From Psammoneis japonica (taxonomy: Eukaryota), in the NCBI GenBank assembly GCA_008632985.1, contig QPGO01000012.1, positions 806,001 to 858,376 of the forward strand: DNA of 52,376 nucleotides, written 5' to 3'. The translations under genes and the position numbers were made by a program. This document shows positions 8,961 to 51,075 of the stretch, in pieces (the first letter of the stretch is position 1; each line of letters starts with the position of its first letter). A model generated the notes under the pieces. The model saw only the letters and a list, made by a program, of their open reading frames with translations, did no database searches and had not been told where the DNA came from.

Positions 8961-8966
8961 ACCAGT

Positions 8967-9362: not shown

Positions 9363-9391
9363 CAGTTGCCTTCTGTGGTGTGTGTGCACAA

Positions 9392-13352: not shown

Positions 13353-13372
13353 GTTTATTGCTTTTGTTGTTG

Positions 13373-22596: not shown

Positions 22597-22639
22597 GAAG
22601 TTCATGTGCACATGAGGATTGCCATCAATTTTTATTTGC

Positions 22640-25162: not shown

Positions 25163-26167
25163 TTGTGTTGCGAAGGGCAGGACACAAAAACCACCGAGAC
25201 GCAGGATCGGATGATGCCTCTTGACGTTGTTGCAGGGCTTGCAGCCCTTGACGCTGGTCTCAGATCCATTGATGAAGCCTCAAAAACGGCACAAGGCTTG
25301 TCACAATGGCTCGAAGAGAACAGAAACAGCAACCCCGGAAGATTTTACTGCCGAGCAAAGGATTGCTTGAAAGAACGCGGTGTCCTTGGTGTGGAGGCCG
25401 CCCTCCAAACACCCTTGAGTGGTGAAGCCCCCCAAAGCGCGAAATCCCCCAATGTTTGGAAATTGATTGATCTTTTCGGTGAGAATGATCAAGGTGACGC
25501 GTGCCCCTCTGGTGTCGTCCATGTGTTGTGCGACAAGAGTGGGAATGGAAAAAGTCATGCCGGGTGGGCTCTGTTGCAGGAATGTTTCGACCTTGGCAAC
25601 AACGTAACCAGGGAATCATGTTTTCAGGAGATGCGATGAAAAAAAACTTGCCAGAAGCATTGTGTTCAGAGCTTGGAGGATCGTTGGTCAATGGGTGGGT
25701 CGACCTGTTGCTCCATGCAATGGACCAACAACCGCGGGCCACATCATTTCCTTCCATTTTGATTTTGGACGGCTTCAATTCAGCGGGAGAAAATGAAGTC
25801 AATGTCGAGTTTATCAGGGCATTGCATGAACGCATGCAGGCACAAAAGAGTGCATTTGTTGTGGTTCTTGCTCAAGACAAAACGATTGCTCAGGAACTCT
25901 TCAATGCCAATGGTGGGGCAAGAATCGTCCCTCTTCCGGGTTCGATGGAAGGGACAACAGATCAACCGAGTTGGAAAGAAGAAAAGTGGACAGTTGAGGA
26001 ACTCGTTGAACTCATTCACTGCAAAGAGCCAGGGGCACACACGGATGATCAAATGCGAGAGTTTGTTTCTCCCAACATGACACCCAGATGTAAATGAGAA
26101 GCTGTCGGGAAAGCGAACCCGCAAGAAACCCGACAGTCCTCGAAAGAAGCGGGCAACTGCAAACTAG
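25163..26167 (+). pseudogene. P-loop NTPase pseudogene
   Basis: VHVLCDKSGNGKSH (Walker A-like) and SILILDGFN (Walker B-like) lie in different frames; basic C-terminus; TA-depleted. Confidence 0.6.
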
Positions 26168-26971
26168 AAACAAGGTTTGACATCAAATTGCTCTACGACG
26201 CGTTCTTTCATGAAGGCTGTGCATGTGTTTTTGTTGTTTGCATGGCCATTGCTTCGTGGTGGTGGGTGTTGTGCCCAGACACTCAGTCAGACAAGTTCAC
26301 TAAAAACAACTGCTGACAAAAGAGAAAGAAATCGATGAGCGCATCGGATCCATCCCAATGCTCATTCATGCCAGTCGACGCCAACCATCAATGTCTGCAG
26401 CCGATTGGCCTCATCTCTAGTGGGATGGAATTGCTTCCGTCAAAAGGACATGGCAGAACACACAGGCCAAAACACAGGCCAGACCCATGTCTCATCAAAC
26501 TGTGTGAATCCAACAAAGCAACGGAGAAAGACAAAGAAGACTGCGATGACAGTCTGGATGGCCTTGACAATGATCCAGACCATGAAGAGGGCAATGACGA
26601 TGACAAGGAGTGAGGATGAGTGAAGTGCCATTGCAGACCAGTTGTTGTTGGAAGTCAGGCAATGCAGTTGGCCATCTGTTGAAATGAATCTTTTGAGTTG
26701 GGAGTTGGGCCAGCGCACAATGGAATTGGGGGGAATTGGGGGGAAACAGGGGGAAACAGAAGTCAGGCTGGCGTGTCCATCCCCTCGAGGGCTGGAGATG
26801 CTGATGCAGAAGATGGGGGTGTCCATCGTTTGGCTTGGGCAACAAACCACCCCGAGGGGCTCTGGGTTTTTCGACCTGAGAGCGGCTCTGGGATTTTTTA
26901 AAAAAGTCCATTTCTGCCAGTCTGGCTTGCAAATGCAGAGCAAAACTGACAAAATTGTGATGACCAAATGA

Positions 26972-28250
26972 GCCAGCCTCACTCTTGCAAACATTTCTGA
27001 GATCGAAACTGGCTCAAAATGGAAGCACAAAAATGCCAGCCTCACTCTGAGTTGTTTTTGTAAGACCAATGCTGGCAAAAATGTGCAAACCTTTGCCCCA
27101 GCCTGGCTCTTGCAAAAAATGTCAAGAGTGACTCTGGGTCATCAGGACCACAAAATTCTCCCAGCCCACAGCTGGTGAAACAATCCAAGAGCCACACTGG
27201 GAAATTGGAGACGATCCAATTCCCAGCCCATCTCTCATGAATGTTTGTGAGAGCCACAGACGACGTGTTCCAGCCGCACGTGAACCAAATCGTGCACAAA
27301 AACGACATTTGCGCGATTTTTGCGCGGTCCCTAACTTACGATCGAACTTTCACCACCAAAAGTATAGATTTACACAAATATAAATGTTTTGCAACACTAA
27401 CAAGACTCGTGTGAGTGTTGCAATATCATTGTTATTGTGCTATATATGTTTTTCATTGCGTTAAAAGATTCGTAACACAACGGATGATTTTCGGCGAAAA
27501 TATTGCCGTTATTTGGATGTTACCTAAACACATCTTTCTACGATGCTATTTGGTAGGTTTTCTACCTACAAAGAAATCTCAGTATAAATCTACTGACGTA
27601 CAATCAGTATTGAGTCTACTGAGGAAGTTTATGATACATATCCCATGAGGACTTGAATACCCCACAAAAAACTGTTTAAATGTTCACACTCTAGACGCCT
27701 ATAAAAGCCAATCCGCTTAAGTATTTTATATGAAAATGCTCCATACACTAAAAGATACATAATTTATATTCAAAATCAATAGGAATCTTTCGAAAATGAC
27801 CCGTGACGTAAAAAGCATAAAATAATTATGGACGCCTGTAGAATCTACACGTTTTTGTACTGAAACTGATATGTTCACACAATTTGTGCAAAAATAGACT
27901 TGACTGTTGTCGGGTCAGGCGCATTTTTGCAAATGTTGTATTGAAGAAAAATACGCCTGATCAGAACAGTCAAGTCCATTTTTCGCAAAGTTAAAATTCA
28001 CTAAGGACAGACAAACAGACTTTTCAATAATTATCTTGGTGCTGTTCTACACATTTCTACGTAAATGACTCTACAGCGCGAAAGATTGCCATTGGATTGT
28101 CGTTTTGTGCGTCACCTGGGACTGGAACACGTCAGACTGGGACATTCAGTGAGCGCGAAAATCCCAGCCTCACTCTCAGTCAAATTTGTGAGAGCCAGTC
28201 TGGGAACCCAATGATCCAGCCCAGCTCTTGTTTGTTTTGCCAAGAGCCAG
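26972..28250. repeat. Array of ~42-bp palindromic units with ~20-bp variable spacers (period 62-63 bp), interrupted by 27262-28133
   Basis: Units at 26972, 27035, 27097, 27160, 27222 and 28163, consensus SCCAG-N5-CTCTYR-N10-YRAGAG-N5-CTGGS. Confidence 0.75.
27262..28133. mobile_element. 872-bp non-autonomous TIR element (GACGTGTTCCAG), TSD AGAC, AT-rich, TA intact
   Basis: Perfect 12-bp TIRs one base different from the MITE TIR; AGAC duplicated. Confidence 0.9.
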
Positions 28251-29623
28251 GGCGGCTGAGTTTGTGTGTCAGTTCGGAGTGTGCATTGACTGTCATGCCT
28301 GAGATCCTCTCAAAGAGGTGGAGCACAGGCTTGGTGGCCACGAAAAATGCACTTGGAGCCACTGCTTGGGCCGGGGTTTGCAATTTGTGCACCCCATCCA
28401 AACGGAAGACTCAGAAGAAGGCCCCGTGGCTCAAGCTCCCTGCTGTGAAGGGACGCTTCTACTCAGACCAAATGTTTTTGAAGGTGAAGTTGACGCACGG
28501 CAAGACTGGAGGCAGTGTTTTTACTGACGGCAGAGGCTGCGATCAGCTCCATCCTTGGAAAAGGAAGCAGGACCATCCTGATGCCATCATGTCGTTCACA
28601 CATGATGTTGGTGTGCCTCAATCCCTGGTGTCTGATGGTGCACCCCAAATGACTGACGGTCACACCAAAGACATTTTTGCAAGGAATGCAGGATGCACCA
28701 GGAGGTGACTGTGCCTTGCAGCCCTTGGCAGAATCTAGCTGAGTCCTCCATCCATGAGATTGGGAGGAGAGTCTGAATGACTCTACACTGGACAGGTGCA
28801 CCACAACGTCTTTGGTCCCATGCTGTGACCTGGGTGTTTGCTGTTTGATGTTCAGTTGCCAGCAACATGTCGGACATGGAGGGACAAGTCCTGGAGGAGG
28901 AGATCACGGGTTCAATGCCCAACATGTCTGCTCTCTCTCTCTTTTCAATTGGCATCAACCTGCACATTGCCACATGCCTGTGGCGGATTTTACATGCAAG
29001 AAGAAGCACATCGGACGCTGGATTGGCATTGCAGAGAATTGCACAGACGAAATGGCTTTTGTCATTTTGCCTGAATCTGGCATGCCCATCATTTGGAAGG
29101 ATGCATGGGGAACACCCGAGGATGACCTCAAGACTCCAGCCATTGAAGCGGCTCTTGTTGAAGTGGACCAGGCCCTTGTTGAGAGGCCAGGCGACCCAAA
29201 AGGGGATGCTGAGACGAATTTCCCAGCAACTCTGGATGATTTGTTGGGCAATGACTTAGACGACCCAGTGGAGCCGGTGGAACTGGGCTCTGCTCAGGAC
29301 GAAGCAGCCGATTGTGCCCCGGAGGGGTTGGATGAATGTCTTGCCGCTGACGTCATGCTGCCACGAGGCAGAAAATTGACTCATGCCAGGGTTGTTGCTT
29401 GCAAACGTGACAGTGATGGTGTTCCTGTGGGTGAAAGGAGCAACAATCCTGTTCTCAACACTGGAGTCATGTGTGACGTGGAATTTCCGGGTGGATCCAC
29501 TGCATTGCACACCACCAGCGTCGTCGATGAGAACCTGTTCTCACGGATTGACTCTGAAGAAGGCAACGCCCATCAGATCATGAAGGAGATTGTCAATCAC
29601 CAAAGCAATGCCCACGCTGTCAA

Positions 29624-30013
29624 GACGCGTTCCAGGTCTAGGTGGGACCTCGCACTGCTGAACTGTGACATCGACAGTTTTTTGAATCACGTCGTATGTC
29701 GCGCACGTGGATTTCTACGTGATTTTTTTGACATTTTGTGTCATTTTACGGCACACTCATTGAGCGATCCGTCCAACAACTTTTGACATTTTTTGTTACA
29801 GCGCGATTCTACAATGTCTTAAGAATCGCGCAGGGCAGGTGCATTTGCAAAAACGTCGAGTGGTGAGAGGCACAATTGCACCACAAACTTGGCCGTTTGT
29901 TTGATGTTAAAGACAAATGTGTCCATTGATTAAATTCTCGTACTGCGGAGCTCGCACGTAGAATTCTACGGGCCCAATGTCACACGGAGTCCCACCTGGG
30001 GCTGGAACGCGTC
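29624..30013 (-). mobile_element. MITE (second subfamily) inserted in the copia, TSD TCAA
   Basis: Perfect TIRs, TCAA duplicated; inverted copy of 22205-22596. Confidence 0.93.
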
Positions 30014-36950: not shown

Positions 36951-39212
36951 GAACCCACCTCCCCCCGTGTGCTTCTTCTGCTGCCATTGTCACCTCTTGA
37001 CACCATGCTTTGCTGCACAAGCAATGTCTTTGTGAAGGAAGAATGACTCCAACACATCACCATTGAAATGACCAACATGCAGAGGCCTCACAGAATTTAG
37101 AAGAAGAAGAAAAAAGAGCCAAGGGACGGACAGGCATGATCATCAAAAAGAAGGTTTTGTGTTAAAAAGAAGCCAGAAACAACAAAAAAGAAGATGACAA
37201 AAAAGGAAACTACAAATTTGTTGCACCAATGCTTGAACCTGTCCACAGCTTGCCAATGTTCCGTTCATTCGTTCTCTCGTCCTGCACTTCCTGAAACACC
37301 ATGGTTGACCTTGACTCAAGGGAGGCTCTCAACGAACGACTTGCGGATCTCATTGGATTTGAAGATGGTGTTGATGATGTTTTGGATCATTTGATTTCAA
37401 TTGATGCAGAATCAGTGCATGCGCTGACACTGCGACATTTTAGACTCGACACTCTCATTGTTCTCACCACCAAGGAAACCTGATGATTTCCATTTTCTGA
37501 CCCTTGGCCTGGCTTTCACTTCCAAGGATTTAATTGATTGCATGTCTCAGTTGTTGGGCTAAGAAACGGATGCTCTGCGGTCATTTGTGAAAGACGTTTG
37601 CAGGTTTAAATGGGGGGAGACTGTTGTTCTGTTGAAAAAGACTCCCAAACACAGAGCAGGAAAATTTTCAACCACACCTGTTGGAAATCGAGGATTTTGT
37701 TGTGCGGACGACGGCCAGACGGTCGGCTGTCAAAACAAAAGATGCGGCTTATGTTGTGCCGAAGAACATCAGTGTGTGGCACAGAAAAGGTGTGGAAGTG
37801 CACTTCTCACTCTTTGTGGCAACACTCAACTGTTGGCACACTGCATTTGTGTGACTTGTGCTGCAGACAGGAGTCTCCGGGGCTGCATTGTCCAACAGCT
37901 GCCACAAAGAGAAGGCTGGGAAGTCAAGTGGAATCCAAGACTGGCTGGTGTGAGCATTTGTGGCATTCAAGCTTGCTGAACTGACAAGAAGCATTTTGAT
38001 TTTGTTGCTCTGGTTGAAGGAGTGACTGGAAAAGAGCCGTTGCTCTGGCCGAAGGAGTGACAGAACAAGTTGACTTCTCCTTTAGAAAGACGGCACTTTG
38101 GTCTTGAAGGAGCGAACAGGTCAGAATGGAAGAAGACAAGCCTGGACAGATTGAGCTGAAGGAGTGCAAGTGCACTGTTGCAACTTGTGCCACCAAGGCC
38201 AATGAGCATGAAGAAACTGCTGAGAAGGTTGCTCAGCATGTGGGAACAAAGTGTGGTTCTGCAGTGCAGAAATTGGTGACACATTTGGAGGAAACAGCAT
38301 TTTCTGAGCCCAAATGTCCCAAGAATGGTGATGAAGGAGAGAAAGCAATCTGGGTCAAGAAGTGTCACAGGTGCATGAAGAATGAATCAGCGTGCTTGGA
38401 GAACAAGTCCAAGGTGTTTGTCGTCTTGATTGAGGGCTGTGACAAGGCCATGTTGAACAGAGTTGAAAGCTTGGAAACTGCAAGGACATGGAAAAGAAGT
38501 CTGATGTTGTCAAGCTTTTGGCTTCTGTCAAGGAAAAAAACCCAATCCCAATTTAAAGTGCCGTTGCACCTTTGCCCAGCAACACCGGCGCCAGCTGACC
38601 CACACCTCCAGCACACTTGACTTGCAAGTGCGGCAGAAGTGGACGCGATTAGCCTGAAACGGCGCCTCCCGGAGGAGACGCCCGACGGAAATGACTGGCA
38701 ATGGTGCGTGTGCCACGACGCGCCAGTTTCCTGGCTTCCTTCAAACTTTCTTTTAATCGGGGACGAACCACAGTGATCCAATTCTGAATTCGAACCGTTG
38801 TGAACGTCTTGTGTGCCCTGTGTGTGTGCCAGGCGCTGAAAAAGAAGATGTGTCACGACTTTGTCGTTGTGAAAATTGTGAGCTAGTTTAGAGCAGAGAA
38901 AATGGGATCGTGCGAATGGGGAATCTTGCCAAATCCCTGTTCGTTCACATTTGGATCGCACCAAATCGATCGTGCGTTCACATTGTGGATCGTGCGAATC
39001 AAGCCATCACGCGCCATGCACGAGTGATGTCATCGTGTGGAATCACGCTGCCATCGTGGGCCAGACGACGGGCCAGTGTGCTTCACACGGATGCTCTCTT
39101 AGCATCCTTCTGGAGTTGCCTGAGACCCAGAGCCACGCCCTCCTGTGGTCGTGCTTCCCAGGTGCGTGTTAACAATGCCACGTTGCCACGCACAAGAGGC
39201 TTGTGCACGGTC

Positions 39213-42200
39213 TCACCGTGTTGTCCAGTGGCGAGGCATGCTGCACACTCCCCCATGATCAGGGCCATTAAGTGACAGAATGTCTTGCTGGTGACAGGGT
39301 GCAATCTGCTGCAGATCACACGCATCTGTCAGCGCTCCGTTCTGGATGCGCAACGTGCCGTTGTCATGTGCACGGACAACTCTGGCGGGTCCTGCATGGC
39401 TGTCAGAACCGCATTTAGAGGATTGTTCCTGTTTGACAAGTGCCAATTGCCCTGCGGCATGTTGATGCTCCTTGCGTTTCTGATTTTTACGCTTGTTGTT
39501 TAAGTGGATGAGCTTCTGCTTTCTGGTTTCCATGTGCTTCCACTTGGCACGATGGGCAACAGACAAAACCGCATCGCGTCCGAAGACCAATTGCGTGGGA
39601 CTTGCACGCGTGGTCGTGTGTGCTGCAGCTCTAATGGCAAAGGCCACTGCGGAGAGGATGCCACTCCATGGGTCATCTTCGTCCAGTTCCACATCCTGCA
39701 CTGAAAAGGAACACACCATGTTGCCAAGTGTCTGGTGCACACGCTCCACTGTGGCATTTGCCTGTGGATTCCGTTTGCTTGTGGGTTTCTTCAAAATCCC
39801 ACAGTCATTTTTAATCATCTGGCTAAATTCTGCCATGAATTCTGTCCCACGGTCACAAACCACCTGGGTTGGCCACGGACATCTGCACAGCCACGTTTGT
39901 TCCACGACGTTTGCTGCGACGTCTGCGCGTTTCGCAGACACTTCTTTAATCTCGAACCACCCGGTTGCTGGGTCAATCATTGTGACTGCCCATGATTGCA
40001 AGGTGTCCTTTCCGCGTCTTTGAATTTTATGTGGCCCTGTCATGTCCATGCACAGAGTTTCCCATGGAATTGTCTCTGCGACCTTTTCTGGCAGCTTCCC
40101 ATGACGCTGCGTTCGGCGTTTTGTCTTCTGGCATCGATCGCACTTGACGCACGTAGAATGCACCGTAGACCTCACACTGGGCCAATGGAAGTGCTGGGCA
40201 ACAGATGTTTCCGCAAGTGTCTCACCTGGATGACACAGTGTCTCGTGGTGCCATTCAGTTAGCGGAACCTGCAATGACTGTGGCACTGCGATTTTGTCCT
40301 CATGACAGATTAACTGTCGTGATGACCCTCCCCCACGACACGCGCGAATGGAGTGGTCGGACGAGTCCTCAGCTCTTGAGAGCAGGCGCTTGTCCTTTTG
40401 TTGTGCTTTTTGAATGTGCTTGAAGCTAATGGGCAGAGACAGCTCATCTTGAGCGTCTGCATTAAAGGCTTCATGCAAAGGACGACTCGATGGAGTGTCT
40501 TTTACATCCGGATTGGCCTCGGAAGGCAAGCTGGGTGCTGGTCGAAGGCGACTAAGAGCGTCAGCGACCAGGTTGTGGGTGCCCTCAACATGGCGTAATT
40601 CGGGACCGCATTCTTCGCATGTCAACCGCCAGCGCATAACGCGCTCGGTGTTGAATGCTTTGTGCGTAAGATTTTTATGATCAGCACACATGATCACACG
40701 ATGACCAAGGAGAATCGTTCGAAATTCTTTCAACGTCTCCACAATGGCGAGCAATTCTCTCTCCGTTGTTGCACAATTTAATTGCGCACTGTCAAGCTTT
40801 CTGCTGTAAAAGGCGACAGGTTCATTGTCTTGGGATGTGACTGCTCCCAATTGATGTTTAGAGGCATCGGCATGCATCTCAAAGGGTTCATTAAAATCAG
40901 GATGTGACAACAAAACATCATCCGACATTGCTCGTTCAACGGTTTCGAACGCCTCGTCTTCAACGGACGTCCACTCCCACTTGACAGTCTCGCTTGCGAG
41001 TCGTGTTGGCGGAGCCAAGACTTCAGAACGTCCAATCCACGTGTCGCGGCAGCAGTTCACCATGCCAACAAATGAACGCAGGTCGCGTTCATTGGTTGGG
41101 GTCGCGATTCGCTCAATGGCGTCGACTTTATCAGGTGTTGGTCGCACTCCGTCTCTGTTGACCAGATAACCCAAGCACTCTAATTGGGTTTGACAGAAGT
41201 GAGATTTAGTTGCGTTGACTTTTAGTCCTGCTTTCTGGACCCTCAATGAAGCTTCTTCAAGTTTGTTGAGGTGATCTTCACAGGTGCCTTTCGTCACGAC
41301 GAGAAGGTCATCTAAGTGCATTCGAACGAACGACAGATCTTCAAATGAGCCTGACATGCGTTCTTGGAAAATGTCTGGCGAATTGCATGATCCCATGGGC
41401 AATGCCTGCATCTCATGCTTGCCCCACGGGAAGATGAGCGTGCAGAGCTTCTTGCTGTCAGTGTCCAATCGGATGTGACAACAGCCCATGTTTAAATCCA
41501 GCGACGCAGCCCACACAAAGCCTTCGAGCTTGAGCAGCATGTCTTGGATGTGAGGAATCGGATGAGGCAATCGCTTGATCCGTTTGTTCAGCTCTCTGAA
41601 ATTGTTGACAAAGCACACCGTTAAATCTTTCTTCGGTGTGATGAATGATGGAGCTGCCCATTGGGATCGGTTGACGCGTTTGAGAACACCGATGCGCACT
41701 GGGCGCTCTACTTCCTCACGCAGCGTAGCTTCGTGCGCACGAGGCACTTCACACGGACGAGCGTGGCATGGTTCCACACCCTCCTTGAGTTGGATGTGGC
41801 AGGGTTCTCCCTTCCATTCTCCCAATGTCCCATCAAGTGAGGACTCATGGCGCTTCAACAGTGCCAAAAGGTCGTTTTGTTGAACTGCAGAAAGTCCTGT
41901 TGCCCCTCGCGTCATGTCCTCGAGGCAGGCCGGCGCGTGCTTGGTGTCCAAAATGCGCGAAATCCGGTCGGTTTCCGAAGACAAGGCTTCTGGATCTTGA
42001 AGATAGAAGGAGGTTTCCACCGCAGCATCTACGTGCCTCATTGGTGCTTCTCCATTGACCAATGGCCACTCTGTCATCTGTTTAGAGAAGACAATGTCAA
42101 TGCCTTGTGTCTCCAGAATGTCACGTCCAACAATCACATCGCACTTGCCCAACTTTCCGTTGTGTGCGTGGACGGTGTGCTCAAGTTCTGCAGTTTCGGA

Positions 42201-42506
42201 TAATTCTGGTAACCAAAATTTAACGGCACAGTCGTCAGACGCACCAAACGAGCCTGCTGCCGCAGTCCAGTTTGTCTCAGCCGTTGAATGGCTTCGCAGA
42301 CGTTTGCAGCATCGACTGTCGAGTGGAGCACTGCTGGCGCCACTGTCCAGCAGTGCCTTGGCAGTTTGAGTCTTGCCCTTGCCATGTTTGGCATTCACAG
42401 CTGTGGACAAGATTGGAGTGAGATGAGTCTTTTTAACTCGTTTGCGGGATTGGCCTGCAACACGTGTACGATGGTAATTCAGTTGTTCATTTGCACATTC
42501 ATCCAA
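39213..42506 (-). pseudogene. gypsy #2 pol (PR-RT-RH-IN), open frame but with many missense changes
   Basis: LLDSGAS; WAAPSF, LDLNMGCCH, MHLDD; HADAS, AFYSRKL, DHKNL; HPG..CDRC, CMDMTGP, DRGTEF, NPQANATVERVH. The catalytic YxDD is changed to HLDD. Confidence 0.92.
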
Positions 42507-42542
42507 TGCATTAAAACCACCTGCATCGTGTCGGCCCCCTTC

Positions 42543-43618
42543 TCAGGCGTCCGAATCTTCGGAATCACTTAAGTTGAGGTCGCGGAAGTGATTGAGCTCC
42601 TCCTCGCGGGCCTTGCGCTTTTTCTGAGCGTTGGCAAAGTGCTCCTCGACCTTCGATCCGATGAGAGTGTTAATGTCTTCCTCATTCCGAGGTTTTGCAC
42701 CAGGCTTGCCGCCTCTGTCATTGGAATGTCCAGTCTTGACACGTTTCACGTGGTGCTTGAGCTGACGGCAATCTTCCGCATCATGTCCACAGTTGGTCCC
42801 GTGCAGCACACACGACTTCTGGGTGTTCCGCTGGGTCGTGATCAATGACTCAGGATTGTCCATTCTACGTCCCGCTTACGTGGAACCTTGGCATGTTGGT
42901 CCTGGTTACCTTCGGTGAGCTCGACCTGCTCGATGCGCTCGCAGAACTGTACAAATTCGGTGATGGCATGCGCCAACGGGTCAAAATTCTGTAGCGTCAT
43001 GAACTTCTGCCATGCGTTCGGCACACCGCACTCGAACACATCGCACAGTTCGTCATTGGGTGATGGTGCCGGTGTTTCTCCATCCTCCGTCACGGGTGGA
43101 AACTGAGAGATGCAGCCGTTAATTTCAACAGCCCTCGCGACGCAGTCACGAGTGGAAACCTCTGCGGGCTTGCGCGTGAAGCGCCGCAGATGACGCTTCC
43201 GCAGCAGCACCGCCCCATTTGGGAAGATGCTTTCCTTTAGCTTCGCGATGCATGCTGCGCACGCAGCATTGGTTTGGGATGCCTGCTTGTCAGCGGCATT
43301 GCCAAATGACGTCAGAGCATCGCCCTGCAGCAAGTCAAGCATGAGGGCAAATTTCGCTGGCCCGTTCGTGATGTTTTGTCCTTCGTGCACGCGATCCACG
43401 TTGCGCAGAAAGATTGGGAGTGTCTCGCATGTAGCCGCAGAAAGGTGCGGGATGCCCATCTCGTGCGTTGGACCATCCGGATCAGTGGGGTTGTTGCGCA
43501 GCTTGAACGTCTGGCACTCGCCCTGCTGCAGCTCTTTCTTCTCCGGCCATGCGAACGGAGTCGGCGGCTCAACCCGCTTCTTCATGGTCGTTTTGAGATT
43601 TGTCGGTCCTGCCAACAT
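42543..43618 (-). pseudogene. gypsy #2 gag (one frameshift near 42850)
   Basis: ORFs 42842..43618 and 42543..42863; IFPNGAVLLRKRHLRR, CVLHGTNCGHDAEDC; homologous to gypsy #1 gag. Confidence 0.82.
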
Positions 43619-46600
43619 TTCGTAGTTTCGTTTCTGTGGATTTCGTCACCTCGCACAACATGCGGGAGCAATGTCACTGTGCCCTGTGTGTGCACTGGGC
43701 GCTGAAAAAGAAGATGTGTTGCGACTTTGTCGTTGTGAAAATTGTGAGCTAGTTTAGAGTAGAGAAAATGGGATCGTGCGAATGGGGAATCTTGCCAAAT
43801 CCCTGTTCGTTCGCATTTGGATCGCATTAAATCGATCGTGCGTTCGCATTGTGGATCGTGCGAATCAAGCCATCACGCGCCATGCACGAGTGATGTCATC
43901 GTGTGGAATCACGCTGCCATTGTGGGCCAGACGACGGGCTAGTGTGCTTCACACGGATGCTCTCTTGGCATCCTTCTGGAATTGCCTGAGACCTAGAGCC
44001 ACGCCCTCCTGTGGTCGTGCTTCCCAGGTGCGTGTTGACAACACTGCGTTGCCACGCACAAGAGGCTTGTGCACGGTCTCGCCGTGTTGTCCAGCAGCAA
44101 GGCATGCTGCATGTGTTCTTCCACTGAATCAAGAAGGGCTGCTCGATCTTTTGCAAGGCACTCTTGTCGTTTGTCACACATTGCAGTCAGTTCTGCTTCT
44201 GCCATTCGCCGTTGGGATGACTTGCGTGAATCCGCATCGTGGCCGTGCACGAGTGCATTGTGTTCCTCCCACAGTTCCCACCATTGTCTCCAGATGAATG
44301 ACCCGATCTGCACCGTCCAATCTGGTGGATGCTTGTCTTCAGCTTTGTGTTGGCGAAGGACACCCGAGTCCCGCAAATGTCCCGACTGAATCAGGTTCCA
44401 CAAAGTTGAACAGCGGCCACCAAAAATCTGTCTCCAACCAACATCTGATTGCGCACGCCACAGCTCCCGACAGCGGTGATCGACATCATCCGTGCAAATG
44501 ATCTCTTCGTCAAACCAGGCTTGAAGAGAATTGATGAGGAAGTCTCGTAGAGTTGGCATTGCATCGATGCAGTCGCAACATTTCCGAAGGCCTTGTAGAA
44601 ACTTCCGGCGCCATGCTTCGTTTTCTGGACATCGAAGGATGTGATCCCTGTCTTCCATGGGATGCTCACACTCAAGGCAGTGATGAGGGCGAACCAGATT
44701 GTACCGGTGTGCCATCTTGTTGGCAGGAAGGAGATCGTGTGCGAGTTTCACCGTGCCAACGTGTTGCTTGGAATGACGCTTGATCAAAACTGCGTGGGCG
44801 TCCCAGTTCACGAGGTCAACAACCTCTCGTCGCCATTGATTGCGCTCGACTGTGTGCTCCAACAGCTGGGGAGCAGCAGCTGCATTTCGAAGCTGTTGCT
44901 TGTAACCAGAGGTCAAGGCACCGTCTGCAAGTGACAAGTAAGAATGGCAGTGAGGAAACGGGAGAACACGTGATGTGTCCCAATCACAGCGACCTTGATG
45001 GGCGCCAGCAAGTCGATCCGCTCTGATGTTCACTCTTGCATTTGGGGGAAGTGAGCTGGCAGGAGCATGCTTGTCTTGATGCCCCTTTGCCCACTTGATC
45101 GACACATTTTCCGGATCTTGCAATTGTTGAAACACACGCAACATCTCGTTGATGACGTCCCAATCCGAGGACAGCGCATTGGCTCCGTGGTGTCGTAAAT
45201 AAAAATCACGTGAATCGTGAGAAGAGTCTTCAGGATTTGGAGCGGGAAGGGTGAGAGTGAGCTTCTTGAGACAGGACACAAGCGACTTGTTGTCACAATG
45301 AATGTCCAATGTCTTGTTCAATCTGGAATGGCAACATTCAACACATCGGTGGATGAAACGAAGAATGGAAAGAACACCGCAAGCCTCTGCACGGTGCGAC
45401 GATGGTTTGTGCCCGAAAACTGGTCCTGCACAATCTACGAGGGGAACCCCTTGGAGTGTGATCGACCACCCAAAGGCAGCGCCTTCATTGACAGATCCAT
45501 CACTTCCTGCGACAAGTGTAGAAGAGTCGAAGCATTGAACCAAGAGAAGGGGGGAAACATGGAAATCTAGTTCCGCAAACAGCTGAGATTCCCATTGAGG
45601 GAGTGTTTGCAGCATGTCTTGAAAAGAATCTGGAGCACTTGGTGCGATTGCAGGGGCCACCGTCGTTCTTGGGATGCTGAATTGCCATCTTCCATCTTCT
45701 GTCGCAGTGACGTCTGCTGGGTGTGATTCATCGGTTGGCGCTGGCACCACCTCGATCTCTCCAATGGATGCCGCTCTCGTTCCGTCAACCAAGAAGATCT
45801 CAAACCCTAACGGGCCCTTGACGCACAGGCAATTTTCTGAGGAAGAATGATGAGCTGACGCCTGCATGCGCATCTGCGACGGAGGAACTGGCCAGTCTCC
45901 CAGCGGTTCTTTTAAACGAATTGTGGAGGCATGGCATGGGGTTTTGCAGAATTTCTTCCACACTGACCAGGCCCGAGCATTCGGCTTGTGTTGTTCAATG
46001 TTGTTCAATGCACTCACACTGCTCCGAATTGAGGGGTCACCATTTGCCTTGGTTTCGTCCAAATGTGTGCCATCCGCTGGGGTCATGTCGGAGACTGCAA
46101 GCACACGAAGGAATGATTGGCAACAATTGATCCATCGGATTTCTCTGTGACTGAACTGTTGTGATCGAAGTGCAACATCCACAACAAATTGGTCATTGTC
46201 ACGTTGAAGGGGCAGAATGCCATTGTGTGTCAGATGGACTTTGCCCTTGATTCCATGCAGAAACGAGCAAACTGAAGCAAACCAACATGATTCAAGGTGT
46301 GGCAACGGAGTGTCAACGTCCCACAAGAAGCTGTCACCTGTGCCCAAGTTCAGCTGCATCCATGCGATTGCAACATGAAACAGTTTGTGAGGTTGGTCCT
46401 CTCCGAGATGCAGATTCTCGACTCCCCGGGAATGTTTCAGCAATTGCTGCAATTGGGCCACACCCTGCTCTACATCAAGGGATCTAAAACCTCCTCCACC
46501 TGGCACTTGGGGGCCACACAGAACAAGTCGTTTGGTGTTGCGGTTGCACCCACATTTGGCAAATGTCACTCTCATCGCCTTCTGCTGAACTTTCTGGAGC

Positions 46601-49600
46601 TCTTTGTCCTGAAAAATAGAATTCGGTGACACATGCGTCATCGAGGAAAGGCAACAGGCATGACAATGCCGCCAGGTTTCCGTCCGATCAAAAGGGCACG
46701 AGCGAAGAAAAAGGGCAGCAGTGTCGCTTTTCTGTTGCAACTTCTGGAGCTGGGTCTTCTGGGCACCAATGGGGGCAATGTAGCACCCGAGGGTCTCATG
46801 TGGAGTGCACGCAGACAGTTGCGTGCTCGAATGAGAAGCAGACCTGTCGGCAGAAAAAATTTCTACATCAATGTCGTCGTGATGTGGACAGAGAAAGGGC
46901 TCACCGTGTTCCGTGAAATCCCATTCAATGGCATGAAAGGAACACTTTGGAAGTTCTAATTCATGTCCTGCCGCGTCGAGCAGATCGCACCATAGTTGGT
47001 TATCTTGTTTCAAGGCATGGGACAATTCGAACGCTGTTGGTTGGGGGCCAGTCCTAAACTCGTTGACCTGTTTGGAAGTGTCATCGACGTAGCCTCTGTT
47101 GCATGCTCTGATGAAGAACTTCCCATCTGGAGTCTCGAAAAAGGACCCGATCGCATTGGCGTCAAAAATGTCAAACAAACGACTGCACAGGGCACTCCAG
47201 CACCAAGGAGAGTTGCCGCTCCCTTGTCCTGTTCCGTAAAGAGGGTGCTGAGAAGAGTGTGAGTAACTGCGCTGCGCAAGACCCAGCAGTGTGCGAAGCC
47301 AGTGTCGAGCATGGTGCAGAGTTGACATGTTCACTTCCACCACGGATGAAGACATGCCGTCACTTCGTGAACACAATCCCACAACAGACGGAATGTTCCG
47401 ATCGCAGCAGGAGGTGCAGTCGTCGTCGCTGGTCAGCAACGTCTTGCGGGACGCTCGGGTTATTTCCAACATCAAATTTTCCAAGAACACTGGCGTTTGA
47501 GCTGACAGGAAAGACCGACAACCACAGATTCCCGGATCACACGTGCGATGGTTCTCCACATGCTGAGCTAGCTCTCGCCATTTGACGCTTGTAATGATTT
47601 GAAAGTCTGCCTCGCAGATGTGTGTCACACGCAATCTGTGCATTTTGTTGTTCCCAGGTTCTTTAAAGATCACAACGTTGACGACATCCTTCCATCGGTC
47701 ATGAGAATGACCCCATTTCAGAGCGCAGTTGATCAAGTGAAGGCAAATCTTGAAGAGAGTCTGTTGGATCTGGTCGAGAGATTCTTTCCGGGAGGATGGA
47801 TTCCCCTCTTTGTCAGTGTCCTTGGCAAAGGAGTGGGGGGCGTGCAATGCCTTCCAGTGGCCCAAGTGCAACCCTGACTTGACAGACGTTGAAGTCGATT
47901 CAGACCATGACTTTAATTTCGAGAGAAGAGATTCTGCTGACAAAAAGTGTGGACCACTTCAAGCTGCCATGGCATGGAGAGGGCATTGTTGTTGGGCAGG
48001 CAAGGGGACAAGGAAAACCTGTTGGCTTGCTGCAAAAGATTCGTGGGCTTGGTTGAGGTTGTGGAGAGGTCTTGTGGTGGGATTGCACCCATGGGATCAG
48101 CTGAGAGAAGAATCCAAAGTGTGCCTCTGAGTCCAACAAGGCCATTGAGATTGAAAAGGACAAGTTTTCAGGAGCCATGTTTTTGGATGGAGCTTGCAAA
48201 AGGAAGTTTGGATGCGTTCTTGATGGACTGCAAACTGATCATGCATTGGGGAACAAGAAGCACCCTAAGAAGGTTGAAGATGCTTTGGAGTTTCTGACTT
48301 TGCATTGGGAGCAGAGAGCCAAAGGAAAGAAGAAAGACTTGAAGTGTTCCAAGGACAACGAGGACCAAGAACTGGGGTTGTCATTTGTGGAAGTGGAGCA
48401 TGGATTGAAGTGCTGGAAATGCAGAAAGTGCGGACATGAAAAGGCAGATTGTCCACCTGCAGCAAAGAAGGATGAGGAAGTGAACATTTTCCAAGTCTGC
48501 GGATGGGCAGGCCAAACTTTTGCATGCCCAAGAATCAAGTTGTGAATTGCAATTGCTTGTGCAAAGGAGTGTGTTGGAAATCAAGGATTTTGTTGTGCAG
48601 ATGATGGTCAGAAGGGCGGCTGTTGAACCAAAAGATGTGGCTTGTGTTGTGCCGAAGTGCACCAGTGTGTGGCACAGAAAAGGTGTGGAAATGAAGCTTC
48701 TCACTCTTTGTGGTGACACTCAACTGTTGGCACACTGCATTTGTGACTCATGCCACAGACAGGAGTCTCAGGGGCTGCATTGTCCAACAACACCTTCTGT
48801 TGGGGGAACAGGTGATGCAGAACCCACGGCACAAAAGACAACGTCAAAGATGAATCACAAAAAAGCAACTCCAGAGACAAAACCAAAACCAACACCTGCA
48901 AGAAATGGTGTTTACAAGAACAAGAATGGGTCCAACAAACTGTGACTGAAAACAAAGCAGATGAGCGGGAACATGCAGAAGGAAATGGCGTTGCCAAAAA
49001 GGCTTTGTCAAATGTCGATGCACAACCGGAGCCAGTGCAAAAAGATGCACCACCTCCTCGAGGCAAAGCAAGAATTGTTTGCGGGTGTTTTGGAACAAAG
49101 CACACAAGTTCAATGAATTGCTTGTGCTGTGGTTGCATGTCATGCGAGTGCGAAAGCTGCAGCTGTTGTCTGTTTTGTGGTTTCCTGGTGCAGCAATTTA
49201 AACCAGAGTGTGCAAGGCACTGCCTGTCAATGCAAAGATGAAGCGCATGAATGGGTTTTGCTCACTCCCTGGTTCTCTGTCTTTGTGCCCAAATGGATGC
49301 TGCAATGATGCACAAGGAGAGGTCATCGAAATTTGACCAAGACTTTGCCAGCCAAACGACAACATTGGATGGCCAGGCTGGCTGCTTTTCCAAGTCAAAG
49401 TCTGCATGGTGTTGAGGAGCAACGCATTAAAGACCTGCCTCCATCAGCGTGGCAATCAATCTTTAGATGCAGCTTTCTGAGTGATTTGTCGTGTGCCCTT
49501 GCTCATTGTTTGAACAAACAGCACAGCTTGCTCGGTCAGCGGACCGCTCTGCTTCCATTGCATGCAGCCAGTCGTCCCGTGCCGCCAACCGCCTTGTTCT

Positions 49601-49809
49601 GTGAAAGCTGTTTCAATCATTAACATATATTAGTAGTTGAGTACATGTTAAAACGTCACGTTCAATCGTCAATATGGCGATGCACATACGTGGAGTGTTG
49701 TTCCACGTACAGTCCTGTGTATGTTTCTACGTGAGTTTGGAATTTTGACTTTTGAGTTTCCACCGCCATTTTTTGATTTTTGTGTGATTGCATTGTTCCA
49801 AGGAACACC

Positions 49810-51075
49810 ATGATACGGCACCCGGTCTTTCTCTTGTTGCTTCTTTTGCAAGTCACTAATGCGTTTGTTCAACTCTCGCATATACGAGTATCAACAAGAA
49901 AGTCTGCTAGGATCTTCCAAGCAGCAACCGTGCAAGACGAAACGGTCGAGTCACCTGCATCCGTTGTGTTTTATGACGACGTAATTGACGAGTCTCTCCC
50001 CGACGGTGTGGTTTGTGCTCGTGGTGTTTGTGTCTTGCCCGAAGAATATGATGAGAGCACTGAAAACAGGGACGGCAGTCTTTTTGACAAGATGCTCAAT
50101 TCGTACATTGGTCCTCGAGCCCTCTTGGCCGGAGCGTCCGTTTTGTATGGAACCAACTTTCCACTCGGAGCCATCATGAATGACTCGCTTCCTCCGTCGG
50201 CAGCGACAAGCGCACGCATGGTCATGGCAGCCTTGGCTTTATCGCCTTTTTTATTTCGGTTAAATCCAAAGCTCTCTGCATCGGCACTGCTGTGTGGGTG
50301 TTTTACGGCACTGGGATACATTACCCAATCACTAGCGCTCGTCGATACCAGTCCAGCGACGGTTGCCTTTTTGGGAGCTGCCACAGTGATTGTCTGTCCG
50401 ACACTGGAAGCCTTGGTCAATAAGAAACCCATGGGACTTTCGGATGCACCACAAACGTGGTTGGCGGCCATGTTGTGTCTTGTTGGAGTTGGTATTTTGG
50501 AACTGTACGATCCAACCGGAGCTGCCGATCCTCTGTCCCAAGTGGGAGCGGGCGATGTTTTGTCGATTCTTCAGGCGGTTGGATTTGGGACTTCCTTTTT
50601 CCTAACCGAACGCATGATGCGAGGTGAGCCGGATCAAGCATTGCCCATCACAGCCGTGCAAGTGTCGACTACTGCGTTCCTTTGCATGATTTGGTGTCTA
50701 TCCGATGGCTGGATTGGTACGGCTGGTTCGGAATCGTTTGCCTTGCCCAACTTGTTCTTTTCGGCTCCCGCCATGACGGCCTTTGCCGTAGCGTGGACAG
50801 GCGTCGTCACGACGGCCATGAATCGGTTTGGTGAAACGCTTGCGCTGGGAAAAATGTCATCGGCCGAAGCGTCCGTCATTTTGGCAACCGAACCGCTGTG
50901 GGCGGCGCTCTTTGCAGCGCTTTTGCTTCAAGAAAGCTTTGGAATCAATGATTATGTTGGTGGGTTCTTGATTGTTTTGGCTTGTCTTGCCAACACGTTG
51001 GATCCGAAGCAAGTAAAGGGTATCTTGTCGAAAGAGAATAAGGATGAGACGATGAACACAGAAGGAGCTAGGTGA
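49810..51075 (+). CDS. EamA/DMT-superfamily transporter with probable bipartite plastid-targeting presequence
   Basis: MIRHPVFLLLLLLQVTNA-F (signal peptide + ASAF-type motif); ~10 TM helices; LYGTNF, GYITQSLAL..T, SAEASVILATEPLWAA. Confidence 0.9.
   Translation: MIRHPVFLLLLLLQVTNAFVQLSHIRVSTRKSARIFQAATVQDETVESPASVVFYDDVIDESLPDGVVCARGVCVLPEEYDESTENRDGSLFDKMLNSYIGPRALLAGASVLYGTNFPLGAIMNDSLPPSAATSARMVMAALALSPFLFRLNPKLSASALLCGCFTALGYITQSLALVDTSPATVAFLGAATVIVCPTLEALVNKKPMGLSDAPQTWLAAMLCLVGVGILELYDPTGAADPLSQVGAGDVLSILQAVGFGTSFFLTERMMRGEPDQALPITAVQVSTTAFLCMIWCLSDGWIGTAGSESFALPNLFFSAPAMTAFAVAWTGVVTTAMNRFGETLALGKMSSAEASVILATEPLWAALFAALLLQESFGINDYVGGFLIVLACLANTLDPKQVKGILSKENKDETMNTEGAR

What the first reader, a model, noticed from the sequence alone, without database searches (positions are those of the whole stretch)
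38814..44111. LTR pair of gypsy #2 shows reciprocal TG versus CA at the same sites, so mutation was post-insertion and on both strands
LTRs are identical at insertion. These differ as GTGTGCCAGG/GTGCACTGGG (ancestor GTGTACTAGG), GTGTCACGAC/GTGTTGCGAC (GTGTTACGAC), CAATGCCACG/CAACACTGCG (CAATACTACG) and CCAGTGGC/CCAGCAGC (CCAGTAGC). There are also one-sided cases (GAGCAG/GAGTAG, CCCAG/CCTAG, TTAGC/TTGGC). A TG/CA pair could also derive from ancestral CG, but the one-sided TA sites and the Tyr codons favour TA. LTR-divergence dating would be badly inflated here.
Basis: seen in the sequence. Interest (0 to 1): 0.8.

Follow-up and report, generated by a model that had tools for sequence, protein, structure and literature searches.

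The report
TpA-targeted hypermutation of diatom transposons
The two end-repeats of a dead jumping gene in a diatom differ almost only where an original TA became TG in one copy and CA in the other, which shows a mutation process aimed at TA sites in foreign DNA that spares the host's own genes.

Summary
The LTRs at 38812-39245 and 43678-44111 (434 nt) differ at 25 positions. All are transitions, 23 lie in YpR dinucleotides, and 6 sites are reciprocal TG/CA. Chance gives about 0.3 such sites, and 0 of 20,000 simulations reach 6.

- In the element's Pol, 20 of 22 conserved Tyr codons are now Cys or His, while 27 of 32 conserved Arg are kept.
- 44 of 67 polarisable changes are TA>TG (24) or TA>CA (20). 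Only 7 are CG-type.
- An LTR site-class model favours TA over CG origin by 10.4 lnL units.
- Other genomic copies still read TA at 13 printed sites.

Host genes in the window keep TpA (obs/exp 0.42-0.51), and the host AMT keeps 9 of 9 conserved Tyr. Repeat DNA falls to 0.00-0.2. Host proteins place the organism among diatoms.

A TpA-only A:T>G:C hypermutation of integrated foreign DNA was described in a 2026 preprint for the chlorarachniophyte Bigelowiella natans. My searches found no report for diatoms or for LTR pairs.

Limits: the family consensus at the six LTR sites could not be read directly, and the enzyme is unknown. Raw LTR divergence (5.8%) overstates age; without TpA sites it is 1.6%.

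The parts
38812..39245 (-). LTR (the 3' LTR in the element's own orientation), 434 nt, with TG...CA termini
   Evidence: TpA obs/exp is 0.18, TG 1.70 and CA 1.54.
43678..44111 (-). LTR (the 5' LTR in the element's own orientation), 434 nt
   Evidence: TpA obs/exp is 0.26.
38827..38831 (.). Two adjacent reciprocal sites (TG/CA at 38827-8 and CA/TG at 38830-1; partners at 43693-7). The outcomes are on opposite strands only 3 nt apart within one copy.
38854..38855 (.). Reciprocal site CA/TG (partner 43720-1), directly next to a CpG that is intact in both copies
39176..39180 (.). Two adjacent reciprocal sites (TG/CA and CA/TG; partners 44042-6), next to an intact CpG
39229..39230 (.). Reciprocal site TG/CA (partner 44095-6)
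39213..42542 (-). Pol reading frame (1109 codons from stop to stop) with RT, RNase H and integrase domains. It is heavily mutated: 80 of 434 conserved columns are changed, the YIDD box reads HLDD, and LDLNMGYY reads LDLNMGCC.
   Evidence: Pfam; polarisation; motifs
42842..43645 (-). Upstream frame of 267 codons (the gag position) with no Pfam match
37679..48789 (-). Older, more decayed element in which gypsy #2 appears to be nested. Its repeat pair is 37679-37897 / 48572-48789 (87.7% identical), and it carries a 1321-codon frame at 43993-47958 (-).
   Evidence: There is only a weak RNase H hit, E 0.021.
3895..9724 (-). Gypsy #1, which shows the same signature. Its LTR pair is 3895-4227 / 9392-9724. 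In the RT part conserved Tyr is kept at 1 of 17 columns (8 to Cys, 6 to His).
22205..30013 (.). Element with 392-nt inverted terminal repeats that encodes a DUF7869 protein. It is the least decayed pair: 16 one-sided TA differences against 2 one-sided CG differences.
11676..13385 (-). Host ammonium-transporter gene, used as the unmutated contrast. TpA obs/exp is 0.51, CpG is 0.97, and conserved Tyr is kept at 9 of 9 columns.
15879..17714 (-). Host MRG/Eaf3-like gene (contrast). TpA obs/exp is 0.50 and CpG is 1.01.
49777..51075 (+). Host EamA-type transporter gene (contrast). TpA obs/exp is 0.42 and CpG is 1.03.

Best explanation
Gypsy #2 is a dead Ty3/gypsy copy in a diatom genome. After it inserted, its chromosomal DNA went through a mutation process that converts TpA to TpG or CpA. 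That is an A:T>G:C transition on one strand or the other of this palindromic dinucleotide, with each site hit independently. About three quarters of the TpA in each LTR, and about nine tenths of the conserved Tyr codons in pol, have been converted. Where both LTRs were hit on opposite strands the pair now reads TG against CA.

The process is aimed at transposon and other foreign-looking DNA and spares the neighbouring host genes. A slower, ordinary CpG>TpG/CpA decay runs alongside it, so old repeats end up almost purely TG/CA at YpR positions. It is the same kind of process as the TpA-only hypermutation measured in mutation-accumulation lines of Bigelowiella natans.

Shown here: the direction, the dinucleotide specificity, the use of both strands, the timing after insertion, and the contrast between repeats and host genes.

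Inferred: that a targeted enzyme causes it. The leading candidate is a DNA adenine deaminase (A>I, read as G), as the preprint proposes. A thymine modification that mispairs with G would give the same pattern. That heterochromatin or small RNAs guide it is also inferred.
For: LTR pair: 25 differences, all transitions, 23 of them in YpR dinucleotides, with 6 reciprocal sites. Chance gives a mean of 0.28-0.76 reciprocal sites, and 0 of 20,000 simulations reach 6.

Direction:
- At 434 Pol columns conserved in at least 85% of 120 homologues, 80 are changed. By class these are TA>TG 24, TA>CA 20, CG>TG 2, CG>CA 5, other transitions 6, transversions 10, multi-step 10 and ambiguous 3.
- Tyr is kept at 2 of 22 columns and Arg at 27 of 32.
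- None of the 120 homologues has more than 2 Tyr>Cys/His.

Strands: 24 against 20, and a runs test gives z = -1.17, so the outcomes are not clustered by strand.

LTR model: TA origin fits with N = 19.3 ancestral TpA and p = 0.74 (deviance 0.70 and 0.22). CG origin fails (deviance 19.2), with -lnL 9.74 against 20.11.

Four repeat pairs: 16 reciprocal sites observed, 16.7 expected from TA and 0.46 from CG.

Other genomic copies:
- 552 of 592 variant places are transitions.
- At 13 printed places others still read TA, with shares of 0.10-0.96.
- Where at least 97% of others differ from the window they carry the residue conserved in homologues: Leu850, Asp314, Arg1078, Arg944, Ala200, Phe236.

Targeting:
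- Host genes have TpA obs/exp 0.42-0.51 and CpG about 1.0.
- 38 of 53 1-kb bins have TpA below 0.3, and some reach 0.00.
- The host AMT keeps 9 of 9 conserved Tyr, with 1 TA-type change among 16.

Family control: 78 related elements from metagenomes have TpA obs/exp 0.56-1.18, median 0.75.

Generalisation: gypsy #1 has 33 TA-type against 7 CG-type changes in its RT part.

Precedent: bioRxiv 10.64898/2026.01.13.699255, of which I read the abstract, Results and Discussion.
Against: - The family consensus at the six LTR sites was not read. No genome is held, and none of the 40 printed rows out of 593 lies in an LTR. The TA ancestry of those six sites is therefore inferred from models and from the coding region.
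- At three adjacent pairs inside the element, 98-99% of the other copies' depth reads CA where the window reads TG. That is not the TA/TG/CA mixture that independent decay would predict.
- At codons 313/314 the progenitor must have had TG, because the Asp is conserved in 119 of 120 homologues. That site therefore went TG>TA>CA.
- The per-pair budgets fit only in sum. The TIR pair has 0 observed against 2.9 expected, gypsy #1 has 3 against 7.6, and gypsy #2 has 6 against 2.25 by the simple estimator.
- The model assumes equal rates among CpGs.
- The metagenome control was retrieved with peptide patterns that contain Tyr, so hypermutated relatives would have been missed.
- Run X1 may be the very sample the assembly came from, so it is not independent proof against an assembly artefact.
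- No enzyme, DNA modification or de novo rate was observed here.
Confidence: 0.8

Rival explanations
1. The reciprocal TG/CA sites descend from methylated CpG. 5mC deamination on the top strand in one LTR gave TG, and on the bottom strand in the other gave CA.
For: CpG decay does occur in this copy. At 7 printed places in the element the window has TG or CA where at least 97% of the other copies' depth reads CG. There are 5 one-sided CG differences in the LTR pair. Old repeats have CpG obs/exp of 0.08-0.13.
Against: 27 CpG are intact in both LTRs and only 5 are one-sided, which gives q = 0.08 and 0.12 expected reciprocal sites against 6 observed. The model deviance is 19.2. Three reciprocal sites directly abut intact CpGs. 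In Pol there are 7 CG-type changes against 44 TA-type, and 27 of 32 conserved Arg are kept.
Confidence: 0.04
2. The sites were TG (or CA) at insertion and swapped through a short-lived TpA. An ordinary G>A or C>T created a TpA, and the fast TpA process then resolved it to the other form. On this reading TA was not the state at insertion.
For: One certain case exists. At codons 313/314 the family majority has T|GAT, with Asp conserved in 119 of 120 homologues, and the window has C|AAT. Two further adjacent pairs have others at 98-99% CA.
Against: None of the 53 retained conserved Trp, Cys, His, Gln or Met codons, which contain TG or CA, shows a swap or an unresolved TA. The one changed codon of these kinds, Trp>Leu, is not a swap either. 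Only 2 non-YpR substitutions occur in 434 nt, so by my arithmetic about 0.2 such swaps are expected in the pair. A normal LTR of this size should have started with about 19-25 TpA, given a median obs/exp of 0.75 in relatives. Only 2 survive in both copies, so about 5-8 TA-derived reciprocal sites are expected anyway.
Confidence: 0.1
3. Assembly or base-calling artefact: modified bases in repeats were misread, so the TpA loss is not in the DNA.
For: The sequencing technology of the assembly and of run X1 is not on record. The window differs from X1 at 38171, 38186 and 44477/8 in single-copy DNA.
Against: X1's k-mer contigs hold 67% of the sampled 31-mers of 36000-45999. One 580-nt contig matches 38002-38581 with 2 differences. 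The same data read TA in other copies of the family and in host genes of the same window. The two LTRs have near-identical local context yet opposite outcomes.
Confidence: 0.03
4. Editing before integration: ADAR-type A>I editing of the element's RNA, or deamination of cDNA during reverse transcription.
For: ADAR prefers a 5' U. This is stated in the preprint's Discussion and I also recall it. The family is a retroelement.
Against: Both LTRs are copied from one template, so RNA editing cannot make them differ (established mechanism of LTR synthesis). Both strands are hit equally, 24 against 20. Each LTR carries changes on both strands. A TIR element, a tandem repeat and low-copy remnants show the same pattern.
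Confidence: 0.02
5. A non-enzymatic bias such as GC-biased gene conversion, or selection against TpA/UpA.
For: Gypsy #2 has a GC fraction of 0.53, against 0.34-0.52 in 78 relatives.
Against: The change is confined to TpA and is not found at all A:T pairs. Only 5 other A:T>G:C changes were seen against 44 at TpA. The CpG changes run the opposite way, from GC to AT. Conserved Tyr codons of a dead element are destroyed, which selection on function would not do.
Confidence: 0.01

Closest known systems
TpA-specific hypermutation of integrated viral DNA in Bigelowiella natans (Mettrop et al., bioRxiv 10.64898/2026.01.13.699255; I read the abstract, Results and Discussion and ran a term search; the supplements are closed)
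   Same: Almost exclusively A>G and T>C changes, only at TpA, giving TpG or CpA depending on the strand. It is confined to foreign DNA, and TpA-poor, CpA+TpG-rich 1-kb windows form clusters. The preprint also reports that low-TpA CDS are enriched in reverse-transcriptase and DDE domains.
   Different: The host here is a diatom (stramenopile), not a chlorarachniophyte (rhizarian). The targets here are multi-copy LTR retrotransposons and a TIR element, not a single-copy giant-virus insert and a virophage. The decay here is near saturation (TpA obs/exp 0.00-0.2, against Rho 0.45 for their NCLDV region). It is accompanied by CpG decay. Here it is read from LTR pairs and codon polarisation and not measured de novo. 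The preprint text has no occurrence of LTR, retrotransposon, diatom or stramenopile.
Repeat-induced point mutation (RIP) of fungi
   Same: Transition-only hypermutation that disables repeated or foreign DNA, leaves host genes alone, has a dinucleotide preference and skews dinucleotide indices.
   Different: RIP is C:G>T:A, mostly CpA>TpA, so it creates TpA and lowers GC. Here the direction is the reverse: TpA is destroyed and GC rises. No strand-coordinated runs are seen (runs z = -1.17). The RIP features given here are from abstracts in the listing and from my own knowledge.
Deamination decay of methylated CpG in transposons
   Same: A palindromic YpR dinucleotide decays to TpG/CpA on either strand. 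This decay is present here as a slower companion process.
   Different: The chemistry is C>T, not A>G or T>C. From one search's p = 0.74 and q = 0.08, the per-site rate here is about 16 times lower than that of the TpA process (my arithmetic). Five of the 78 related metagenome elements show strong CpG loss (0.04-0.13) with normal TpA.
ADAR hyperediting and APOBEC editing of retroelements
   Same: Enzymatic deamination as a restriction on retroelements. ADAR prefers a 5' U, which would match a TpA motif.
   Different: Those enzymes act on RNA or on cDNA before integration and on one strand. Here fixed chromosomal copies are changed on both strands after insertion.

Membership tests
Ty3/gypsy LTR retrotransposon | Direct long terminal repeats flanking the internal region | tested here: met
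   434-nt pair, 94.2% identical
Ty3/gypsy LTR retrotransposon | Pol domain order RT - RNase H - integrase | tested here: met
   RVT_1 at 312-459, RT_RNaseH_2 at 524-617, Integrase_H2C2 at 753-810 and rve at 826-926
Ty3/gypsy LTR retrotransposon | LTR termini TG...CA and a short target-site duplication | tested here: inconclusive
   The TG...CA termini are present. The 5 nt outside the two ends (TCTTG and TGTGT) do not match. One contig joint, 38809>44112, has 5 shared letters but only 20 nt on its shorter side.
TpA-specific hypermutation of foreign DNA (Bigelowiella type) | The changes are A:T>G:C transitions | tested here: met
   44 TA>TG/CA plus 5 other A:T>G:C, against 8 G:C>A:T transitions and 10 transversions, among 67 single-step polarised changes
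TpA-specific hypermutation of foreign DNA (Bigelowiella type) | Restricted to TpA, giving TpG or CpA depending on the strand | tested here: met
   44 of 49 A:T>G:C changes are at TpA, split 24 TG and 20 CA. TpA obs/exp is 0.23 in the element.
TpA-specific hypermutation of foreign DNA (Bigelowiella type) | Local: foreign DNA is affected and host genes are not | tested here: met
   Host genes 0.42-0.51 against repeats 0.00-0.2. The host AMT keeps 9 of 9 conserved Tyr.
TpA-specific hypermutation of foreign DNA (Bigelowiella type) | De novo rate about 1000 times the background, measured in mutation-accumulation lines, and active in only some lines | not testable with these tools
   No lines or raw reads were available. 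The only indirect signs are the rate ratios from the LTR classes and the window-versus-run differences at 44477/8.
Fungal RIP | C:G>T:A transitions that create TpA and lower GC | tested here: not met
   TpA is depleted and not enriched, and the direction is reversed
ADAR-type RNA editing of retroelements | Acts on the RNA before integration, so both LTRs inherit the same change, on one strand only | tested here: not met
   The LTRs differ reciprocally and both strands are hit
Methylated-CpG decay | CpG>TpG/CpA with loss of CpG | tested here: met
   It is present as a secondary process: q = 0.08 in the LTRs, 7 element places where at least 97% of other copies read CG, and old repeats with CpG at 0.08-0.13. 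Methylation itself was not tested.

The most novel reading that the evidence does not exclude
Diatoms have a dedicated, locus-targeted DNA-editing defence that converts TpA to TpG/CpA in transposons and other foreign DNA. It would be a mirror image of fungal RIP and homologous to the process just seen in the rhizarian Bigelowiella, and therefore old within the SAR supergroup. On this reading it works alongside CpG methylation, so that both palindromic YpR dinucleotides of silenced DNA decay to TG/CA. The chemistry would be deamination of adenine in DNA, possibly of a modified adenine, by analogy with 5mC. This would be a new class of eukaryotic genome defence, and it would make transposon ages based on LTR divergence unreliable in these lineages.
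Probability: 0.4. Interest if true: 0.9.

Novelty: new member of a known kind. Interest (0 to 1): 0.78.

Why it matters
A mutation process aimed at TpA in foreign DNA has so far been reported once, in a 2026 preprint on one chlorarachniophyte, where it acted on integrated viruses. Finding the same signature at near saturation in LTR retrotransposons and a TIR element of a diatom has several consequences:
- It extends the process to a second major lineage and to ordinary transposons.
- It offers an abundant natural read-out, through LTR pairs and conserved Tyr codons, for surveying other genomes.
- It suggests the mechanism is widespread in marine protists.
- LTR-divergence dating is inflated here by about 3.6 to 12 times.
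- Stop-free spurious ORFs abound, because TAA and TAG are erased.
- Homology searches that rely on Tyr-containing motifs will miss such copies.

Tried and rejected
- A metagenome scan with the window's own Pol found no relative. A second scan with an alignment of 20 homologues gave 78 loci at 48-66% identity and none from this family, so there is no LTR outgroup.
- Read laying printed 40 of 593 variant rows, none of them inside an LTR. Only the internal region and the flanks could be cross-checked.
- No RNA holder is listed for the region.
- The protein atlas on the AMT fragment gave only broad eukaryote taxa.
- Target-site duplication: the 5 nt outside the two LTR ends do not match. The contig joint 38809>44112 (side 20, 5 shared letters) is too weak to call an empty allele.
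- timed out on alignment and was repeated with 60 homologues per set.
- Pfam at E up to 1 on the 1321-codon frame gave only a weak RNase H match.
- Literature searches found the Bigelowiella preprint and nothing on TpA hypermutation in diatoms. Subscription journals and the preprint's supplements, which are closed, were not searched.
- Rejected readings: RIP (wrong direction), gBGC or selection, pre-integration editing, and CpG origin of the reciprocal sites.

Full report
**1. The observation**

The window holds a direct repeat pair at 38812-39245 and 43678-44111. It is 434 nt long, 94.2% identical and has no gaps. The repeats begin with TG and end with CA.

Between them, on the minus strand, lies a 1109-codon frame with reverse transcriptase, RNase H and integrase domains in the Ty3/gypsy order.

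The two LTRs differ at 25 positions. All are transitions, and 23 lie in YpR dinucleotides. The classes are six reciprocal CA/TG sites (12 substitutions), four CA/TA, two TA/TG, four CA/CG and one CG/TG.

Random placement of 25 transitions gives a mean of 0.28 reciprocal sites. Placement restricted to YpR bases gives 0.76. In 20,000 simulations of each kind none reaches six.

**2. It is not peculiar to this pair**

Over the whole window TpA obs/exp is 0.24, TG 1.50, CA 1.51 and CpG 0.68.

In 1-kb bins the window splits into two kinds of DNA:
- The three recognisable host genes (ammonium transporter, MRG/Eaf3-like protein, EamA transporter) have TpA 0.42-0.51 and CpG about 1.0.
- 38 of 53 bins have TpA below 0.3, some at 0.00. 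In these TG and CA rise to 1.5-2.0, and in the most extreme stretches CpG is also only 0.08-0.13.

Six of the seven repeat pairs in the window show the same concentration of differences in YpR dinucleotides, all six with reciprocal CA/TG sites. The TIR pair has none, and its 16 one-sided TA differences outnumber its 2 one-sided CG differences.

Because TAA and TAG have been erased (493 and 349 occurrences on both strands, against 2275 TGA), long open frames occur in many frames.

**3. Direction: the coding region as outgroup**

A search with the element's Pol returned 120 homologues at about 53-62% identity, all unnamed metagenome or assembly proteins.

At 434 columns where at least 85% of them agree, the window copy differs at 80. 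Of 22 conserved Tyr columns, 11 are now Cys (TGY), 9 are His (CAY) and 2 are kept. Of 32 conserved Arg columns, 27 are kept and 3 are Cys or Gln.

The implied single-base changes, classified by context, are:

| Class | Count |
|---|---|
| TA>TG | 24 |
| TA>CA | 20 |
| CG>TG | 2 |
| CG>CA | 5 |
| Other transitions | 6 |
| Transversions | 10 |
| Multi-step | 10 |
| Ambiguous | 3 |

The two strands are hit about equally, and the outcomes are not clustered along the element (runs z = -1.17).

The RT motifs read LDLNMGCC for LDLNMGYY and HLDD for YIDD, so the copy is dead. The frame stays open only because this kind of change never creates a stop.

None of the 120 homologues has more than 2 Tyr>Cys/His.

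Controls:
- The host ammonium transporter, compared with 60 of its 120 homologues, keeps 9 of 9 conserved Tyr. It has one TA-type change among 16 replacements at 245 conserved columns.
- Gypsy #1, compared with 60 of the 120 Pol homologues, keeps 1 of 17 conserved Tyr in its RT part (8 Cys, 6 His). It has 33 TA-type against 7 CG-type changes.

**4. Direction: other genomic copies**

One coded run (X1, Logan contigs) holds 67% of the sampled words of 36000-45999. When it is laid on 38000-45000, the summed word depth over the element is 10,000-44,000, against 74-135 in the left flank. The tool warns that this figure is not a copy number. In total 6756 contig pieces aligned.

Of 592 places where X1 contigs read another letter, 552 are transitions. 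Only 40 of 593 rows were printed, and I analysed 39 of them:
- At 13 places the window has TG or CA where other copies read TA, with shares of 0.10 to 0.96.
- At 7 places in the element, and 2 in the single-copy flank, the window has TG or CA where at least 97% of the depth reads CG. Ordinary CpG decay has therefore hit this copy too.

Where the majority differs from the window inside pol, the majority encodes the residue conserved in the distant homologues: Leu850, Asp314, Arg1078, Arg944, Ala200 and Phe236. This validates the polarisation.

**5. The LTR sites themselves**

No outgroup LTR could be obtained, and no printed row lies in an LTR. The ancestry of the six reciprocal sites therefore rests on inference.

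*(a) Sink argument.* In the oldest repeats both TpA and CpG are nearly gone and TG/CA is in excess. TG/CA is therefore the derived state, and the ancestor of a reciprocal site is TA or CG.

*(b) Site-class model.* The model assumes a per-copy mutation probability and a random strand.
- With TA origin the classes (2 intact, 6 one-sided, 6 reciprocal) fit N = 19.3 and p = 0.74, with deviance 0.70. The CG classes (27, 5, 0) fit q = 0.08, with deviance 0.22.
- With CG origin the CG classes (27, 5, 6) give deviance 19.2.
- The lnL difference is 10.4.

*(c) Starting number.* N of about 19 is what a 434-nt LTR with the family's normal TpA content would carry. The 78 related elements have a median obs/exp of 0.75.

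*(d) Budget over four pairs.* Over the four pairs where it can be estimated, TA origin predicts 16.7 reciprocal sites, CG origin predicts 0.46, and 16 are observed. The individual pairs scatter: 0 against 2.9, 6 against 2.25, 3 against 7.6 and 7 against 4.0.

*(e) Neighbouring CpGs.* Three reciprocal sites abut CpGs that are intact in both copies.

**6. A complication**

At three adjacent pairs in the element the window reads TG while 98-99% of the other copies' depth reads CA.
- At codon 850 the majority has TTG (Leu) and the window TCA (Ser). This fits an ancestral TTA that changed silently in the active lineage and to Ser in this copy.
- At codons 313/314 the majority has T|GAT, with Asp conserved in 119 of 120 homologues, and the window has C|AAT. 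This site went TG>TA>CA.

Swaps through a transient TpA therefore exist. They look rare. None of the 53 retained conserved Trp, Cys, His, Gln or Met codons is swapped or stuck at TA. With only 2 non-YpR substitutions in the LTR pair, I expect about 0.2 such swaps there (my arithmetic). I keep this path as a minor rival for the six sites.

**7. Further features**

From p = 0.74 and q = 0.08, TpA decays about 16 times faster than CpG in this element (my arithmetic).

Surviving TpA in the repeat bins (249 sites) were compared with 20,888 TpA in the 78 related elements:

| Context | Ratio to baseline |
|---|---|
| ATAT | 0.05 |
| ATAC/GTAT | 0.07 |
| GTAC | 0.43 |
| TTAA | 2.76 |
| CTAG | 1.56 |
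| CTAA/TTAG | 1.40 |

So RTAY contexts are strongly under-represented and YTAR contexts are over-represented. This suggests a flanking-base preference.

In low-copy DNA the window and run X1 differ reciprocally at 44477/8, TG against CA. This is what two alleles or strains that resolved one TpA independently would look like. It is a single observation.

**8. Organism**

The named relatives of the ammonium transporter, at 51-67% identity with the best unnamed hit at 74%, are all diatoms: Odontella, Helicotheca, Nitzschia, Cylindrotheca, Trieres, Seminavis, Epithemia, Mayamaea and Amphora. The few named relatives of the MRG protein are diatoms as well: Cyclostephanos, Attheya and Seminavis. No hit near 100% appears, so the organism is not one whose proteome is in that collection under a name.

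**9. What is known**

A bioRxiv preprint (10.64898/2026.01.13.699255) reports the closest precedent. I read the abstract, Results and Discussion; the supplements are closed. Its main findings are:
- In mutation-accumulation lines of Bigelowiella natans, an integrated giant-virus region and a virophage region mutate about 1000 times faster than the rest of the genome.
- Low-TpA CDS are enriched in reverse-transcriptase and DDE domains.
- The authors found 124 clusters of TpA-poor, CpA+TpG-rich windows.
- They propose an ADAT2-like DNA adenine deaminase.

The preprint's text contains no occurrence of LTR, retrotransposon, diatom or stramenopile. Seven full-text searches found no report of this process in diatoms. 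For all papers other than the preprint I saw only the listings.

The present case is therefore a second lineage and a new class of targets for a kind of process that has just been described. It is the reverse of fungal RIP, which makes TpA.

**10. Mechanism**

Shown: the direction, the TpA specificity, the use of both strands, the timing after insertion, the sparing of host genes, and the co-occurrence with CpG decay.

Inferred: that an enzyme targeted to silenced or foreign chromatin deaminates adenine in DNA, or modifies thymine so that it pairs with G. Nothing in the window bears on the enzyme.

Rivals that I consider unlikely are a CpG origin of the reciprocal sites, pre-integration editing, an assembly artefact, and gBGC or selection. 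The reasons are given under Rival explanations.

**11. Verdict**

The dating warning is correct: 5.8% raw divergence, against 1.6% without TpA-derived changes and 0.46% without CpG as well.

Noticed in passing
window 43993-47958 (-), with the repeat pair 37679-37897 / 48572-48789: A 1321-codon open frame with no Pfam family except a weak RNase H match (E 0.021). It is bracketed by an 87.7%-identical direct repeat pair 10.9 kb apart. It looks like an older, more decayed LTR element into which gypsy #2 inserted (TpA obs/exp 0.13).
   Followed up: partly
window 22205-30013: An element with 392-nt inverted terminal repeats (92.9% identical) that encodes a DUF7869 protein (22579-23940, -). Its repeats are the least decayed pair: 11 TpA intact, 16 one-sided TA differences against 2 one-sided CG differences, and no reciprocal site.
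   Followed up: partly
whole window: Long open frames occur in many frames and on both strands (33 of at least 200 codons). This is because TAA (493) and TAG (349) are far rarer than TGA (2275). Most are probably by-products of TpA loss and not genes.
   Followed up: partly
window 14001-15000: A sharply bounded 1-kb TpA-poor island (obs/exp 0.08) between the host AMT and MRG genes. It holds a 365-codon frame (14045-15142, +) with no significant Pfam match.
   Followed up: no
window 33001-36000: Three consecutive 1-kb bins with TpA obs/exp of 0.00 and a GC fraction up to 0.60. Their origin is unknown.
   Followed up: no
window 2001-4000, 21001-22000, 48001-49000: Stretches where CpG (0.08-0.22) as well as TpA (0.01-0.05) are almost gone and TG/CA reach 1.6-1.9. 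This is the apparent end state of both decays.
   Followed up: partly
window 38171, 38186, 44477-44478: In low-copy DNA the window differs from the only contig of run X1 that covers each place. It reads TG against CG twice and TG against CA once. These are possible allelic or strain differences made by the same two processes.
   Followed up: no
window 38809 / 44112: One X1 contig joins 38809 to 44112, skipping 5302 nt, with 5 letters shared by both sides but only 20 nt on the shorter side. It is a weak hint of an allele without the insertion.
   Followed up: no
repeat bins of the window: Surviving TpA are mostly in YTAR contexts (TTAA 2.76 times the baseline, CTAG 1.56). RTAY contexts are nearly gone (ATAT 0.05, ATAC/GTAT 0.07), which suggests a flanking-base preference.
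   Followed up: partly
pol codons 46, 61, 236 (window 42406, 42361, 41837): Three T>C changes unique to the window copy in TpC or TpT context on the coding strand. All other copies read the conserved residue, so some A:T>G:C change also occurs outside TpA.
   Followed up: no
window 1566-1815: An assembly gap of 250 N.
   Followed up: no
L060, L077, L031, L012, L064: Five related metagenome elements with strong CpG loss (obs/exp 0.04-0.13) but normal TpA (0.62-0.73). This is classical methylation decay without the TpA process.
   Followed up: no
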